A stretch of 64,000 nt of DNA from Candidatus Buchananbacteria bacterium RIFCSPLOWO2_01_FULL_39_33 (GCA_001817505.1 MHIM01000004.1:6953-70952); one strand, 5' to 3'; shown: positions 57,450 to 61,075, counted from the stretch's first letter. The notes: generated from the sequence alone by a model not told the origin. A program made the numbers and translations.

Positions 57450-58447
57450 TAATCCATCTCCTGATAAACAATCGAGGATCGATTTTTATCATCAAGAGAC
57501 CTTTCAATAACCAGGTCTTCAAAATAATGGCAACTGTCTTTGACCGAACAAAAAAAACATTCATCCCCAGTTGGCTCTTGGCCACAAAGCGGTAAAATAG
57601 CTGAAGCTTGGTTGGTAATCGGCAGCAGCTTGCCATTGTTCTGGCTGTCTCTTCTGCTACCTTTTATCACCTCTTTCTTTTGCCACTTAAGTGAACGAGG
57701 AGCTATTCGAACCCCAACCGAATCCAACAAAGAGTTGGCTTCTTCAAGTTCTCCAATACTATAACCTAGCTGGGAGTAATAACCACCATAATTTCTAGCC
57801 ATAGACACAATTTCCTGAGTGACTTTGGCGTTGATTTCCGCTTTTTGAGTGACTTTGGCATCAATCTCCGCCTGCCATTTGGCTGTTAATTCCTTGTTTA
57901 GAGGACGGCTAATCTGCCAAGGCACGTCTTGCCAGATAATGCCTCTTTGGTAATCATAGAAAGTAAATTCAGCGCGTCCGCTTCGCCCGAAGATGCCCCG
58001 GATGAACCAAGGATTGTGACTGAAATGTTTCATCTGGTCATCGTCTTGGCCAGAGGGACTAGTGGAACTGCTGGGATGGACATGACCCCAAAACATCAGT
58101 CGTTGGGCCAGTTCCTCATTTTCAATAATTAAATCAGTGAACAAATCAGCCAAACCTTCTTCGGTTATTTCAGTAGTCGCTCCATGAACTTCCTGCTGGA
58201 ATAAGAAAATTCCGTCAATCAAAAATCGATAATCGGTAATGGTTAGCACGCTGCCCAGCCAACCGATTTCATCAAACCCGCTTAAATTAGCAATAGTCAG
58301 CATATCAGCATAAGCTTCGGGTGTGATAAAAATACCAGGGACATTATTCCTGTTGATAGTTTCTTGTCTGGTCTCAAATTGATGGGGGGCGAAAGGATCC
58401 GCCCCCTTTTTGCCACCTTGCCAAATATTGCCTTTCCAGTTAGACAT
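57449..58447 (-). CDS. JAB/JAMM (MPN+) metallopeptidase with a Cys-rich C-terminal region
   Basis: JAMM motif WGHVHPSSSTSPSGQDDDQM with an upstream Glu (QQEVHG). C-terminal CGQEPTGDECFFCSVKDSCHYF looks like a zinc ribbon. Confidence 0.75.
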   Translation of the reverse strand: MSNWKGNIWQGGKKGADPFAPHQFETRQETINRNNVPGIFITPEAYADMLTIANLSGFDEIGWLGSVLTITDYRFLIDGIFLFQQEVHGATTEITEEGLADLFTDLIIENEELAQRLMFWGHVHPSSSTSPSGQDDDQMKHFSHNPWFIRGIFGRSGRAEFTFYDYQRGIIWQDVPWQISRPLNKELTAKWQAEIDAKVTQKAEINAKVTQEIVSMARNYGGYYSQLGYSIGELEEANSLLDSVGVRIAPRSLKWQKKEVIKGSRRDSQNNGKLLPITNQASAILPLCGQEPTGDECFFCSVKDSCHYFEDLVIERSLDDKNRSSIVYQEMD

Positions 58448-59597
58448 TATTTATCTCCTTGGGTTCATTTTCCACTATCGGCCAATGCTTGACAATGTTT
58501 GAACCAGCCCCGTCATCAAAATTAACCGTTTCCAAATATTCTAAAGCCAGCAGGGCAATAGCGGCAAATTGATATTCGGCTATCAGCTGGGCAATTATTT
58601 CCTTGATATTACCCAAGCAGGGTATACCATTTTTATTAATATGCGGGTGTTGGATATTGAAATCATCGCCAGTGCCTTTTCTGGTAGTATTGAAAAATTT
58701 GATGCCGCCGTCTTGGCCATTAAGATAAATTTCAATTCTGAACTTACCGATGTCAAAAGTAACTTTCTTCTGGCCGCCATTCGGCACTTTAGTGGTGATG
58801 TAAATGTGGCCGGTGTCAATGATCACCATATCCTCACTGGCTCTGACACTCTCCACGCCGTCCAAAGATACCAATTTATTATACTCGGCCTCAAAAATGG
58901 CAACATCGGATTGTTCACGCTGTTTTATTTGAAGCAATTGGCGCCTCGAATCGTCAGCGTTGCGAATAATAGCTATCAACTGCTTTTGCAAATTAACCTG
59001 CGTTGATTCCTGATCGGCTAAATTAGCTTCAATTTTTCTGATAAACATTTTATATTGCTGGCGGCAAGCTTCAACATAAAATTTCAGCTGGCGCTGCTGA
59101 CGGTCCTTAGCCAACTGAAGGTCGCGCTGCTGGCGTTCTTGGTCGGGCAAGGTCAACTCAACCACAGTCTGCTCTAAAATCTTGCGGTAAATATCTACAC
59201 CTTTGGTTATGTCACTTATAAAAATCGGCAGATGAATATACAAATTATCACCGATTATTTCGGCTAAAATATAATCTGATTGACCATCAGTAATGCCAAT
59301 GCCGGTATCAGTGAATTTAAAGCAGCTCCAACCATGCGTATTATCAGTAGTCAAGCCGAATAATTTATTGGGTACTTTAGCCGGACCGCTTCCGCCCATA
59401 GCCGCTGACCAGACAAAAATATGAAAACAACCATTACTTAAAGGAATCTGGCAGATATTAGAGAAGTGAACGATAGTTTTACGATTGATAACCGGCAACA
59501 ATATTTCTTCAGTAGCTCTTTTAAAGGCTAAAATTCTTTGGTGAGTAACATTTACCAGACCAGACTGATTAATAACCACCTGGGGAATATTAATCAT
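58440..59597 (-). CDS. E2 (UBC)-like conjugating-enzyme domain at the C-terminus, fused to an N-terminal domain shared with the upstream gene plus a coiled coil
   Basis: C-terminal QHPHINKNGIPCLGNIKEI matches the E2 HPN-x5-G-x-ICL catalytic motif. Residues around 60-170 are homologous to the C-terminus of the 493-aa upstream protein. Confidence 0.65.
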   Translation of the reverse strand: MINIPQVVINQSGLVNVTHQRILAFKRATEEILLPVINRKTIVHFSNICQIPLSNGCFHIFVWSAAMGGSGPAKVPNKLFGLTTDNTHGWSCFKFTDTGIGITDGQSDYILAEIIGDNLYIHLPIFISDITKGVDIYRKILEQTVVELTLPDQERQQRDLQLAKDRQQRQLKFYVEACRQQYKMFIRKIEANLADQESTQVNLQKQLIAIIRNADDSRRQLLQIKQREQSDVAIFEAEYNKLVSLDGVESVRASEDMVIIDTGHIYITTKVPNGGQKKVTFDIGKFRIEIYLNGQDGGIKFFNTTRKGTGDDFNIQHPHINKNGIPCLGNIKEIIAQLIAEYQFAAIALLALEYLETVNFDDGAGSNIVKHWPIVENEPKEINNV

Positions 59598-61075
59598 TTT
59601 TTTTGTTCTTCTTCTGGCAACTGTAAAAATTTCAGTGCTTTCTCCAATATCTTTCTGAAGATATTATAATCGTCGTGATAATCTTCGTGGCAAATATCAT
59701 GGAAAATATAGAGATTATTGCCAATAATTTCCGCTATGGGGTTGTCATCGTTGGTTTCGTCAGTAATAACGAAATCGGCCAAGTCGCTGGGTAAAAAACC
59801 AGGATCAGTACAACCAACTCCATAACCCCACATTCTGGCGGCTGTCATGGCATTTTTCTTGGAACCATTTAGCGATGACCAGATTAAGATATTAAAATCG
59901 TCATTGGCGGGTAATGGATGATTACTCCCATGAGGCACAAAAAGTTTAATATTTTTATTAACCGCCGGCAAAATAATCTGCCGAATCAGAGCTTCCACTC
60001 GTTCCAATTTCATTTGACCGACCCAGTTATTGGGCGTGATAAAGAAAACATCCTGGGGACGCAGTCCAGCAGGCGCTTGGCCCAGAGCAATGGGAATATA
60101 ATGTTCCAGTAAGTCAACGCAAAAAGCCAAATCAAAGTCATCTGGAGTATCGTTTAAGCCGAAAATATTAACCACCCGGCCATTAGCCAAATAACCGATA
60201 TTATTCCCTTGGTCTTCGCTCAAATTCAACTCCCGGCCAACAATAATATGAAGTTCATCGTCGGTTTGAGCGCGGGTGGGCAAGCCTTCACTGGCACAAT
60301 ATCTTTCATAAAGCTTGATTCTTTTAACGCCAGTAACATTAGTCCTAAGCCAATCACTTAAATTAATGAAAAGATCTTGCCAGCCATTATTATAATAGCC
60401 ACAGGGAGCAACAATTTCCATTTTAACACCTTGGCGAGCCATCAAATTCTCTCCTTCTTCGGCGGTAGCAGCCATCACAACCGGCAGATAGAGATGGATG
60501 TCATTTATTAACCGGTCATATTCGCTAAAGGTGAAATCATCAGAAATTTTCCTAAAGCCTATAACCTGGCCACCGGGTCGATAACTGACTCGGCCGTCAA
60601 TGACACTTGCCGTGATGCCGGCGCCAATAACCAGGTGAAGCTCATCGTCAACCGGCCTAATATCCCGATCTTCGTCGTCCACAGCTTCATGAATGACAAT
60701 GGTATGCGGATAATATTGACTTAATCGATTTTTCAGAACTTGAAGCTGCTGTTCCCAGTATTCGTTTAAAAAACCATTGGGCGCGGAAATAGCAACGCGC
60801 TCTCTGGGCGCTGCCGGCTCTTGGACAGCCGTCGGCATAAAAGTTACTGTTTCTGAATCCCGGACTGTTAACTTCAAAATACCGGGAATGGAAGTTTCGG
60901 TTTGCGCTGACACGTCAATTTTTAATAAAGTCAAAAATCTTATAATTTTATCTTCTTCCAAAATCAAGCCGTCGTCGCCGTCAATCTCCATATCAATACA
61001 AGGAATATCAATATTGGCCGAGGTAAATATTTTTTCTTCAGTCAAATCAGAAAAAGCCACGAAAAAATTGTTCAT
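59594..61075 (-). CDS. large uncharacterised protein, first gene of the Ubl/E1/E2/JAB operon
   Basis: 493 aa. Two internal repeats of about 45 aa (DDELHLVIGAG...GQVIGF... and DDELHIIVGRE...GRVVNIFGL...). The C-terminal domain (MWGYGVGCTD...AEIIGNNLYI...YNIFRKILEKAL) is paralogous to the N-terminal region of the E2-containing protein. Confidence 0.45.
   Translation of the reverse strand: MNNFFVAFSDLTEEKIFTSANIDIPCIDMEIDGDDGLILEEDKIIRFLTLLKIDVSAQTETSIPGILKLTVRDSETVTFMPTAVQEPAAPRERVAISAPNGFLNEYWEQQLQVLKNRLSQYYPHTIVIHEAVDDEDRDIRPVDDELHLVIGAGITASVIDGRVSYRPGGQVIGFRKISDDFTFSEYDRLINDIHLYLPVVMAATAEEGENLMARQGVKMEIVAPCGYYNNGWQDLFINLSDWLRTNVTGVKRIKLYERYCASEGLPTRAQTDDELHIIVGRELNLSEDQGNNIGYLANGRVVNIFGLNDTPDDFDLAFCVDLLEHYIPIALGQAPAGLRPQDVFFITPNNWVGQMKLERVEALIRQIILPAVNKNIKLFVPHGSNHPLPANDDFNILIWSSLNGSKKNAMTAARMWGYGVGCTDPGFLPSDLADFVITDETNDDNPIAEIIGNNLYIFHDICHEDYHDDYNIFRKILEKALKFLQLPEEEQKK

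What the first reader, a model, noticed from the sequence alone, without database searches (positions are those of the whole stretch)
58440..61075. Two upstream operon proteins share a paralogous Cys-containing domain; the larger also has an internal tandem repeat
The C-terminal roughly 130 aa of the 493-aa protein align to the N-terminal region of the E2-containing protein:
- FNILIWSSLNGSKKNAMTAARMWGYGVGCTDPG ... AEIIGNNLYIFHDICHED..YNIFRKILEKALKFLQLPEEEQ
- FHIFVWSAAMGGSGPAKVPNKLFGLTTDNTHGWSCFKFTDTG ... AEIIGDNLYIHLPIFISD..IYRKILEQTVVELTLPDQERQ

A conserved Cys (GCTD / SCFKFTD) suggests a second catalytic or metal-binding module. It could be an E2-variant, E3-like, or target-recognition domain. 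The 493-aa protein additionally contains two roughly 45-aa repeats beginning DDELH(L/I)(V/I)(I/V)G. None of these match families I recognise.
Basis: seen in the sequence. Interest (0 to 1): 0.6.

Follow-up and report, generated by a model that had tools for sequence, protein, structure and literature searches.

The report
Split E2 enzyme with repeated unknown domain
The two proteins are the two halves of one ubiquitin-conjugating-type (E2) enzyme of a Candidatus Buchananbacteria bacterium, built from tandem copies of a previously undescribed domain, only one of which keeps a conserved His/Cys/Asp site of unknown function.

Summary
The paralogy is real. A residues 341-493 match B residues 1-160 (BLASTP E 2e-13; z = 23 against shuffles). 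A's internal repeat is also real, but each unit is about 120 aa, not 45 (E 2.4e-6; z = 9.7).

The shared domain ("D") has no Pfam, NCBIfam, PADLOC, PHROG or PDB relative. Its AlphaFold model is confident (pLDDT 93). It defines a family of about 680 protein clusters. Of 168 proteins examined, 156 carry it N-terminal to a coiled coil and a divergent UBC-like E2 domain.

In orthologues A and B are one polypeptide (P0027: 63% and 64% identical). In the window they are split at an A8 tract with an ATGA overlap, and four other assemblies show the identical split.

Six residues of D (A: H382, C422, D424, H459, D460, H463) are kept or lost together. No protein has more than one intact copy. A's copy is intact and B's is degenerate. 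The "shared conserved Cys" therefore fails: B's Cys92 lies in a copy-specific insertion and is Tyr in four of seven orthologous copies.

The gene order E2, JAB, ThiF-type E1, Ubl is conserved in other candidate-phyla-radiation (CPR) bacteria and partly in Planctomycetota. It fits none of Bil, Bub or CBASS. The function of D is inferred only: an accessory, possibly metal-binding, E3-like module.

The parts
59594..61075 (-). Gene A (493 aa): N domain, R1, R2, intact D domain. This is the N-terminal half of a split multidomain E2 enzyme.
   Evidence: ORF. An identical protein, P0001, is named as Candidatus Buchananbacteria and seen on 16 contigs. The fused orthologue P0027 is 62.6% identical over A 1-493. 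The AlphaFold model of full A has pLDDT 88.2.
60851..61075 (-). N domain (A residues 1-75). Secondary-structure order beta-alpha-beta-beta-alpha-beta-beta, ferredoxin-like.
   Evidence: pLDDT 92-97 and DSSP string. Present in 119 of 168 family proteins. Only weak Foldseek hits, to PII/PstA, GFRP and ACT-like chains (E > 1).
60455..60820 (-). R1 (A residues 86-207), first copy of the internal repeat.
   Evidence: R1 against R2: E 2.4e-6 over 118 aa; z = 9.7. The R domain was found in 13 of 168 family proteins. Secondary-structure order beta-alpha-beta-beta-beta-beta-alpha.
60068..60442 (-). R2 (A residues 212-336), second copy of the internal repeat.
   Evidence: Same evidence as R1. R profile against the degenerate-D profile: hhalign E 7e-4, probability 26%, colinear over 106 columns.
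59597..60055 (-). Intact D domain (A residues 341-493) with the cluster H382, C422, D424, H459, D460, H463 and the invariant E449.
   Evidence: AlphaFold pLDDT 93.4. Profile search finds 680 cluster representatives. Co-conservation statistics. Residue coordinates.
59597..59604 (-). A8 tract at the A/B junction (CAA AAA AAA TGA overlapping ATG). A's stop and B's start overlap as ATGA. A -1 shift here would fuse A and B in frame.
   Evidence: Sequence. The junction is identical in 4 other assemblies, and the fused orthologue reads through in frame. No stimulatory RNA structure downstream (z = -0.48).
58440..59597 (-). Gene B (385 aa): degenerate D' domain, coiled coil, UBC-like E2 domain.
   Evidence: ORF. 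P0027 is 64% identical over B 1-380. 15 homologues, of which the full-length ones share the D - coiled coil - E2 layout.
59118..59597 (-). D' (B residues 1-160), degenerate paralogue of D. The H/C/D cluster is lost; E and L equivalent to A-E449 and A-L455 are kept.
58848..59117 (-). Predicted helical coiled-coil linker (B residues 161-250).
   Evidence: Read from the heptad-rich, Q/K/R/E-rich sequence and from its conserved position in all homologues. Inferred; not modelled.
58443..58847 (-). UBC-like E2 domain (B residues 251-385). Motif H317-P-H-x7-C327 (catalytic Cys codon at 58617-58619).
   Evidence: All 14 PDB sequence hits of the E2 profile are eukaryotic E2s, with the HPN and Cys motifs aligned, but E is about 0.7. 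P74, H75 and C83 of the domain are invariant or nearly so. No Pfam E2 family hit.
57449..58447 (-). JAB/JAMM peptidase (332 aa) with an intact HxHx7SxxD motif at residues 122-135.
   Evidence: Motif. Weak PADLOC JAB and Pfam Prok-JAB hits. Conserved operon position.
56706..57449 (-). E1: single-domain ThiF/MoeB-type adenylyltransferase (247 aa).
   Evidence: Pfam ThiF 8.3e-21. NCBIfam ThiF families. PADLOC hits cover only the E1 part of E1-E2 models.
56063..56635 (-). Ubl precursor, probably starting at M28 of the 217-aa ORF. First beta-grasp ends in the conserved I-K-G117-N118, followed by a second ThiS-like domain and a tail.
   Evidence: Alignment of four orthologues. The single-domain orthologue in L019 ends exactly at ...LRGN. 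Terminator-like hairpin at 56007-56029.

Best explanation
Genes A and B encode the two halves of a single multidomain E2-type conjugating enzyme. The layout is N - R - R - D | D' - coiled coil - UBC-like E2. It belongs to a five-gene Ubl-conjugation operon (A, B, JAB peptidase, ThiF-type E1, Ubl precursor) in a Candidatus Buchananbacteria genome.

The shared domain exists because a family-specific alpha/beta domain (D) was tandemly duplicated in the ancestral single gene. A frameshift at an A8 tract later split that gene between the two D copies.

Exactly one copy, at A's C-terminus, keeps a six-residue His/Cys/Asp cluster. B's copy is a degenerate pseudo-copy. R1 and R2 are probably still more eroded copies that lack the cluster-bearing loop.

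Proposed mechanism (inferred):
1. JAB trims the Ubl precursor to expose Gly117.
2. The E1 adenylates the Ubl and passes it to Cys327 of B.
3. A docks on B through the D/D' pair, much as active and inactive paralogue pairs do elsewhere in ubiquitin systems.
4. The intact D cluster, most likely a metal (Zn) site, forms a conserved platform that positions the Ubl or a conserved partner or target. It would act as a built-in E3-like adaptor in cis.
For: Shown by tool results:
- The paralogy and the repeat are far above chance.
- P0027 (886 aa) is 62.6% identical to A over its residues 1-494 and 64% identical to B over residues 495-883. P0002-P0006 are likewise fused.
- The split, with its ATGA overlap at an A8 run, is identical in the window and in four assemblies from other samples.
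- 156 of 168 D-containing proteins carry the same E2-like C-terminal domain. Architectures: N-D-E2 64, D-E2 35, N-D-D-E2 31, N-R-D-D-E2 9.
- H42 and C82 (domain numbering) agree in 207 of 233 copies. 79 copies keep all six cluster residues.
- 102 of 167 proteins have exactly one intact copy and none has two.
- In multi-copy proteins the copy next to the coiled coil is usually the degenerate one.
- In otherwise intact copies H123 is replaced by E, D, N or C in 16 of 104 cases. That pattern suits a metal ligand.
- E109 is kept in 215 of 233 copies of both classes.
- R1, R2 and D share the same order of secondary-structure elements. R against degenerate D gives hhalign E 7e-4.
- The gene order E2, JAB, E1, Ubl recurs in Buchananbacteria, Moranbacteria and a 'Gammaproteobacteria' MAG; loci from Saccharibacteria and Planctomycetota show E2, JAB and E1, with no Ubl detected by my profile.
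- E2 identity.
Against: - No experiment, and no view of the model coordinates, shows that the six residues form one site or bind metal.
- 65 of 167 family proteins have no intact D, so the cluster is dispensable for the core E2 function.
- Neither the D model nor the full-length A model has a significant structural neighbour. Best Foldseek E-values are 0.07 and 0.05 against PDB, and 0.18 for D against the viral library. An E3-like role therefore rests on domain architecture alone.
- R/D homology is weak. R against intact D gives probability 0.9%. An earlier comparison with small profiles gave 0.2%.
- The E2 assignment is sub-threshold by sequence (E about 0.7) and was not checked by a structure model of B.
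- Physical association of A with B is inferred only from the fusion in orthologues.
Confidence: 0.55

Rival explanations
1. The intact D domain is an enzyme in its own right, with C422 as nucleophile supported by His and Asp residues. It could be a second thioester relay station (a HECT-, RBR- or SidC-like E3 chemistry). Alternatively it could be a thiol hydrolase that processes or removes the Ubl.
For: - Conservation is enzyme-like: Cys, three His and two Asp, plus W11, G13, W59, W76, G77 and G93 (domain numbering).
- At most one intact copy per protein, with pseudo-copies alongside, is the classic enzyme/pseudoenzyme pattern.
- The weak but recurrent Foldseek hits are to class I glutamine amidotransferases, which use a Cys-His-Glu triad.
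Against: - All those structural hits are non-significant (E >= 0.07, TM <= 0.42).
- In the model C422 lies in a long irregular loop. It is not at a strand-turn-helix nucleophile elbow and not at a helix N-terminus (DSSP).
- H463 is replaced by E, D, N or C in otherwise intact copies.
- 39% of family proteins lack the site.
- The operon already encodes a JAB peptidase for processing.
Confidence: 0.2
2. D, D', R1 and R2 are purely structural spacer or oligomerisation modules. The cluster is a structural metal site that staples the long 63-94 loop. It would have no role in Ubl transfer or target choice.
For: - The cluster is dispensable in 65 of 167 proteins.
- The degenerate copies carry an insertion with a Trp in five of the seven orthologous copies aligned (though not in B itself or in P0027); I suggest this could fill the lost site.
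- Copy number varies from 1 to 5.
- E109 and the hydrophobic core are kept in all copies.
Against: Intact copies are very strongly conserved across distant lineages, including surface-type residues. A strict limit of one intact copy per protein is also hard to explain by structure alone.
Confidence: 0.2
3. The similarity is a chance or compositional match, or the A/B split is an assembly or sequencing artefact of one continuous gene.
For: The junction is a homopolymer (A8), a classic place for indel errors.
Against: - z = 23.4, with 0 of 2000 shuffles reaching the score.
- The profile finds 680 family members.
- The same A8 junction occurs in five assemblies from different samples.
- The 493-aa protein is recorded on 16 contigs.
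Confidence: 0.03

Closest known systems
Eukaryotic-type UBC E2 enzymes, including large E2/E3 hybrids such as UBE2O and BIRC6 (architecture recalled from general knowledge)
   Same: B's C-terminal domain aligns with UBE2N, UBE2L3, UBE2A and UBE2D2 across the beta-meander, the HPN-type motif (here x-P-H) and the catalytic Cys. Like the E2/E3 hybrids, the E2 carries large N-terminal non-catalytic modules in the same chain.
   Different: The sequence similarity is sub-threshold and no Pfam UQ_con or Prok-E2 family matches. The Asn of HPN is His. The accessory domains (N, R, D) have no detectable relative.
Bil systems, Type I and II BilABCD (Chambers et al., PMC10557695; summary in Ye et al., PMC11601596)
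   Same: A four-function cassette of Ubl, E2, JAB peptidase and E1. The E2 has a catalytic Cys. The Ubl has a conserved Gly followed by extra residues that a JAB peptidase would remove. No separate E3 gene.
   Different: The Bil E1 is a multidomain protein (inactive plus active adenylation domains plus a Cys domain) and the gene order is Ubl-E2-DUB-E1 (PMC10557695). Here the E1 is a 247-aa single ThiF domain and the order is E2-JAB-E1-Ubl. No PADLOC model hits the E2 or the Ubl. The neighbours are housekeeping or DNA-repair genes, not a defence island.
Bub / 6E / DUF6527 operons (Ye et al., PMC11601596)
   Same: A bacterial Ubl-conjugation operon whose Ubl precursors have several beta-grasp domains and are processed by a JAB peptidase.
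   Different: Bub E1 and E2 lack the catalytic Cys and work through oxyester intermediates, and the operon carries a DUF6527 serine protease. Here the E2 Cys is nearly invariant and no DUF6527 is present.
Active/inactive paralogue pairs in ubiquitin systems: Ubc13-Uev1a/Mms2, Rpn11-Rpn8, and the inactive and active adenylation domains of E1s (general knowledge)
   Same: One intact copy of a domain is paired with degenerate copies of the same fold, in the same chain or the neighbouring chain.
   Different: The domain involved is neither UBC, MPN nor an adenylation domain. Pairing of D with D' has not been shown.
Class I glutamine amidotransferase-like fold (HisH, Pdx2, PabA)
   Same: These are the most frequent structural neighbours of the D model. 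D has a Cys, and a His-Asp pair directly after its last beta-strand, which recalls the amidotransferase Cys and HPE motif.
   Different: All hits have E >= 0.07, probability <= 0.41, TM 0.2-0.4 and rmsd 9-10 A. D has two main helices (at the N- and C-terminal ends, each followed by a short 4-5-residue helix) and no nucleophile elbow. There is no sequence relation.

Membership tests
UBC/E2 superfamily (B residues 251-385) | HPN-type motif followed about 8 residues later by a catalytic Cys | tested here: met
   H317-P-H-x7-C327. P, H and C are invariant or nearly so in 30 homologues. The motif aligns with HPN...C of UBE2N, UBE2L3 and UBE2D2.
UBC/E2 superfamily (B residues 251-385) | Statistically significant sequence or profile match to known E2 families | tested here: inconclusive
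   All 14 PDB hits are E2s, but at E 0.67-1.5. hhalign against one E2 sequence gives E 0.0019, probability 14%. No Pfam UQ_con or Prok-E2_A-E hit for 30 members.
UBC/E2 superfamily (B residues 251-385) | UBC alpha/beta fold | not tested
UBC/E2 superfamily (B residues 251-385) | Works with an E1 and a Ubl | tested here: met
   Co-operonic with a ThiF-type E1, a JAB peptidase and a beta-grasp Ubl in at least 8 distinct loci from several phyla. This is context only, not biochemistry.
E2-variant / UEV / RWD (for the shared D domain) | UBC-like fold, or profile similarity to E2 | tested here: not met
   D profile against the family's E2 profile: hhalign probability 0.2%. Foldseek against PDB gives no E2, UEV or RWD chain in the top 50.
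RING / U-box / HECT / RBR E3 ligases (for D) | Cross-brace pattern of 8 Cys/His zinc ligands (RING), or a HECT/RBR catalytic domain fold | tested here: not met
   Only one or two Cys and three His are conserved, spread over 80 residues of a 150-aa alpha/beta domain. No Pfam or PDB match.
Class I glutamine amidotransferase-like (for D) | Flavodoxin-like fold with the Cys at a strand-turn-helix nucleophile elbow, plus a His-x-Glu motif | tested here: not met
   Foldseek best E 0.069, TM <= 0.42. In the model C422 is in a helix-free loop spanning domain residues 63-94.
Bil (Type I/II BilABCD) | Multidomain E1 (inactive plus active adenylation domains plus Cys domain) and gene order Ubl-E2-DUB-E1 | tested here: not met
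   The E1 is 247 aa with a single ThiF domain. The order is E2-JAB-E1-Ubl. No PADLOC hit for the E2 or the Ubl.
Bub (6E/DUF6527) | E1 and E2 without catalytic Cys, plus a DUF6527 protease | tested here: not met
   The E2 Cys is nearly invariant. No DUF6527 in the operon.
Type II CBASS (Cap2/Cap3) | E1-E2 fusion next to a CD-NTase and an effector | tested here: not met
   PADLOC E1-E2 models match only the adenylation domain of the 247-aa E1. The neighbours are superoxide dismutase, enolase, uvrB and uvrA.

The most novel reading that the evidence does not exclude
The D domain is a new kind of catalytic or metal-dependent E3-like module that works in cis with a UBC-like E2. It would belong to a previously undescribed bacterial ubiquitination system that is inherited vertically beside DNA-repair genes in reduced CPR genomes, which suggests a housekeeping or stress role rather than antiphage defence. 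Degenerate paralogues would serve as scaffolds. The A8 junction might also allow a minor fused A-B product through -1 slippage.
Probability: 0.15. Interest if true: 0.8.

Novelty: new variant of a known kind. Interest (0 to 1): 0.55.

Why it matters
Bacterial ubiquitin-like conjugation systems (Type II CBASS, Bil, Bub) have only recently been shown to work. How they choose targets without an E3 is an open question.

This family couples a fairly classical-looking E2 (x-P-H...Cys) to a conserved domain with no known relatives. That domain has an enzyme-like residue cluster and an intact-copy/pseudo-copy organisation. It is therefore a concrete candidate for a built-in E3, adaptor or second catalytic centre.

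The system sits in small candidate-phyla-radiation (CPR) genomes next to uvrBA or recR, not in defence islands. It could point to a non-defence use of protein tagging in bacteria.

The naturally split (window) and fused (orthologue) forms make the domain interactions directly testable.

Tried and rejected
- No sequence-library hit for A or for D: Pfam, NCBIfam, PADLOC and PHROGs for A; Pfam and a PDB profile search for D.
- The last homologous-protein search, run with the D alignment, returned nothing. This is probably a limit of the word index, because the exhaustive representative search found 680 proteins.
- The first genome-contig scan failed because the alignment was too divergent. A narrower alignment worked.
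- 'D is an E2 variant' was rejected.
- 'A is three copies of D' was first rejected at profile level (probability 0.2%). It was then partly revived by the matching secondary-structure order and by larger profiles (E 7e-4 against degenerate D).
- Atypical D-containing proteins without an E2 domain (P0076, P0100, P0114, P0132 and others) showed no informative Pfam partner domain and no usable genomic context.
- A stimulatory RNA structure for -1 frameshifting downstream of the A8 tract was not found (z = -0.48).
- Literature searches found no description of this E2 family or its domains. The classes of Iyer et al. 2006 (6a-6e, PMC1779556) do not fit.

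
Full report
**Setting**

The finding lies in a tightly packed operon of five genes on the minus strand:
- A: 493 aa, 59594-61075.
- B: 385 aa, 58440-59597.
- A JAB/JAMM peptidase: 332 aa, 57449-58447, with an intact HxHx7SxxD motif at residues 122-135.
- A single-domain ThiF-type E1: 247 aa, 56706-57449 (Pfam ThiF 8.3e-21).
- A beta-grasp Ubl precursor: 56063-56635/56716.

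Neighbouring genes overlap by 1-11 nt. A terminator-like hairpin follows the last gene at 56007-56029. The flanks are enolase and superoxide dismutase on one side and uvrB and uvrA on the other. An identical copy of A is recorded as a hypothetical protein of a Candidatus Buchananbacteria bacterium, a member of the candidate phyla radiation.

**Checking the observation**

The paralogy is real.
- A 358-493 aligns with B 20-157 at 30% identity, E 2e-13. On the trimmed domains the E-value is 1.5e-16.
- The local alignment score is 138 against 28.2 +/- 4.7 for 2000 shuffles (z = 23.4).

The internal repeat of A is also real, but the unit is a whole domain of about 120 aa, not 45 aa.
- The units are residues 86-207 and 212-336: 24.6% identity over 118 aa, E 2.4e-6; z = 9.7.

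The shared segment is not a linker. Its AlphaFold model, built on 24 homologous domain sequences, has mean pLDDT 93.4 and pTM 0.89. It is a compact alpha/beta domain: beta, alpha, four short strands, a 30-residue irregular loop, a three-stranded meander, then a long C-terminal helix.

**What the two genes are**

The word-index search found only 7 relatives of A and 15 of B. Their sequences settle the architecture.
- P0002-P0006 (749-785 aa) contain A-like and B-like parts in one chain.
- The commonest form (about 448 aa) is N domain, one D domain, coiled coil, E2-like domain.
- A later hit, P0027 (886 aa), is 62.6% identical to A over its residues 1-494. It is 64% identical to B over residues 495-883.

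A and B are therefore the two halves of one ancestral gene. The shared domain is a tandem duplicate inside that gene. The duplication predates the split: A's D is about 31% identical to P0027's second copy and about 63% identical to its first.

The split lies exactly at the linker between the two copies, at CAA AAA AAA TGA. B's ATG overlaps A's stop codon (ATGA) inside a run of eight A. The same junction is present in four further assemblies from other samples. The fused orthologue reads through in frame. The split is therefore real and fixed in this lineage.

**The domain family**

A profile of the D domain, scored against 1.84 billion representative proteins, found 680 proteins at E <= 1e-3 and 146 at E <= 1e-30. 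Individual proteins hold up to five copies.

Among the 168 sequences I could examine, 156 carry the same E2-like C-terminal domain. The architectures are:
- N-D-E2: 64
- D-E2: 35
- N-D-D-E2: 31
- N-R-D-D-E2: 9
- N-R-R-D-D-E2: 1

D has no match in the sequence libraries: full-length A gave nothing in Pfam, NCBIfam, PADLOC or PHROGs, and the D domain itself gave nothing in Pfam or in a profile search of PDB sequences. Foldseek found nothing significant either. The best PDB hit has E 0.069 and the best viral hit E 0.18. The most frequent weak neighbours are class I glutamine amidotransferases, at TM 0.2-0.4. I do not take that as a fold assignment.

**The Cys question**

I aligned 233 D copies to the profile. 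Six positions are kept or lost together. In A they are H382, C422, D424, H459 (or its neighbour 458), D460 and H463.
- 79 copies keep all six. About 100 copies have lost nearly all of them.
- His42 and Cys82 (domain numbering) agree in 207 of 233 copies.
- 102 of 167 proteins have exactly one intact copy. None has two.
- In multi-copy proteins the copy next to the coiled coil is usually degenerate.

A's copy is intact. B's copy has lost all six cluster residues and keeps only a His at the flanking position 118.

In the family-anchored alignment A-C422 is opposite B-N86. B-C92 lies in a short insertion peculiar to the degenerate copies, where it is Tyr in four of seven orthologous copies. C422 of A is nevertheless part of a genuine conserved site.

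In otherwise intact copies H463 is replaced by Glu, Asp, Asn or Cys in 16 of 104 cases, and C462 by Val in 26. I read this as more typical of a metal ligand set than of a strict catalytic triad. That reading is an inference.

One residue, E449 in A, is kept in 215 of 233 copies of both classes. It may mark a function common to all copies.

**The R repeats and the N domain**

The model of full-length A (pLDDT 88.2) shows R1, R2 and D with the same order of secondary-structure elements: beta, alpha, beta, beta, beta, beta, alpha. R lacks the long loop that carries the cluster.

The profile evidence for homology between R and D is weak:
- Small profiles: probability 0.2%.
- Larger profiles, R against degenerate D: E 7e-4, probability 26%, colinear over 106 columns.
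- Larger profiles, R against intact D: E 0.058.

I consider it more likely than not that R is an eroded D-type domain. It is not shown.

The N domain (residues 1-75) has a ferredoxin-like element order and only weak structural neighbours.

**The E2 and the operon**

B's C-terminal domain carries H317-P-H-x7-C327. In 30 homologues the Pro is invariant and the second His and the Cys are nearly so.

All 14 PDB sequence hits of its profile are eukaryotic E2s, aligned on the beta-meander, the HPN motif and the catalytic Cys. Their E-values are only about 0.7. No Pfam E2 family matches. I did not model B.

The gene order E2, JAB, E1, Ubl recurs in other Buchananbacteria. There it occupies the same place between the superoxide dismutase gene and uvrB, with the fused form of the gene. 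It also recurs in a Moranbacteria locus and in a MAG labelled Gammaproteobacteria. Loci from Saccharibacteria and Planctomycetota show E2, JAB and E1, but my profile detected no Ubl there. In L019 the operon lies between recR and ribosomal or housekeeping genes.

The Ubl has a conserved (K/R)-G-N at the end of its first beta-grasp. The single-domain orthologue in L019 ends exactly at ...LRGN. This suggests that Gly117 is the conjugated end once JAB has trimmed the precursor.

**Comparison with known systems**

- Bil operons have a multidomain E1 and the order Ubl-E2-DUB-E1 (PMC10557695).
- Bub operons lack the catalytic cysteines and carry DUF6527 (PMC11601596).
- Type II CBASS has an E1-E2 fusion with a CD-NTase.
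- The 2006 classes 6a-6e (PMC1779556) do not describe an E2 with this architecture.

The system works like these pathways but fails the membership tests for each. I found no paper describing this E2 family or its domains. That is absence from the library I could search, not proof of novelty.

**Mechanism**

I commit to the following, with the caveat that only the architecture and its evolution are shown.
1. A and B act as one enzyme.
2. JAB matures the Ubl, the E1 activates it, and Cys327 of B carries it.
3. The array of D-type modules is the enzyme's accessory arm. Its single intact His/Cys/Asp site, probably a metal site, acts as a conserved docking or E3-like element. The degenerate copies serve as scaffold.

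The main rivals are a true second catalytic centre on C422 and a purely structural role. About 39% of family proteins lack an intact site, so whatever it does is an add-on to the core E2 function.

**Verdict**

The domain and the E2 family appear undescribed, and I rate the case a new variant of a known kind of system. Interest is moderate.

Noticed in passing
window 59594-59608 (minus strand): The A/B junction reads GAA CAA AAA AAA TGA, with B's ATG inside the A8 run. It has the form of an X_XXY_YYZ slippery heptamer (A_AAA_AAA) directly before a stop codon. A -1 shift, or one extra A from transcriptional slippage, would join A and B exactly into an 878-aa protein that matches the fused orthologues. 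The junction is identical in five assemblies. No downstream RNA structure supports programmed frameshifting.
   Followed up: partly
window 52787-52899 (in uvrA) and 54250-54382 (in uvrB): Both DNA-repair genes carry an in-frame insertion of the same palindrome-rich repeat element of about 115-135 nt (77 nt at 82% identity plus 29 nt at 83%). It adds similar peptides (PLTKGK[KQ]IK.SPYQ...WPK.S). This resembles the Rickettsia palindromic elements that insert into coding regions. Only these two copies contain the 23-nt core in the window.
   Followed up: partly
window 56063-56716 (minus strand); L019 6747-7040: The Ubl ORF probably starts at M28. Its first beta-grasp ends in the invariant G117-N118, followed by a second ThiS-like domain and a tail with no C-terminal Gly-Gly. 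A single-domain orthologue ends exactly at ...LRGN. This points to Gly117 as the conjugated residue after JAB trimming.
   Followed up: partly
window 57449-58447 (minus strand): Beyond its catalytic domain the JAB protein has about 180 extra residues. They include a short tandem peptide repeat (AEIDAKVTQK / AEINAKVTQE) and a Cys-rich tail (CGQEPTGDECFFCSVKDSCHYF) that could be a small zinc-binding element.
   Followed up: no
L013-L016 (near-identical contigs, B 99% identical to the window's, from four other samples): All four contigs begin 259-272 nt upstream of B's start, inside the region that encodes A's D domain. This suggests a recurrent assembly break there, perhaps from strain variation or from the paralogous repeats.
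   Followed up: no
window 50877-63427; L002; L019: The operon lies among housekeeping and DNA-repair genes: sodA and eno upstream, uvrB and uvrA downstream. It is in the same place in another Buchananbacteria genome, and next to recR in L019. It is not in a recognisable defence island.
   Followed up: partly
window 60851-61075 (A residues 1-75): A well-predicted N-terminal domain (pLDDT 92-97) with a ferredoxin-like beta-alpha-beta-beta-alpha-beta order. It is present in 119 of 168 family proteins and has only weak similarity to PII-like and ACT-like small-ligand-binding domains.
   Followed up: partly
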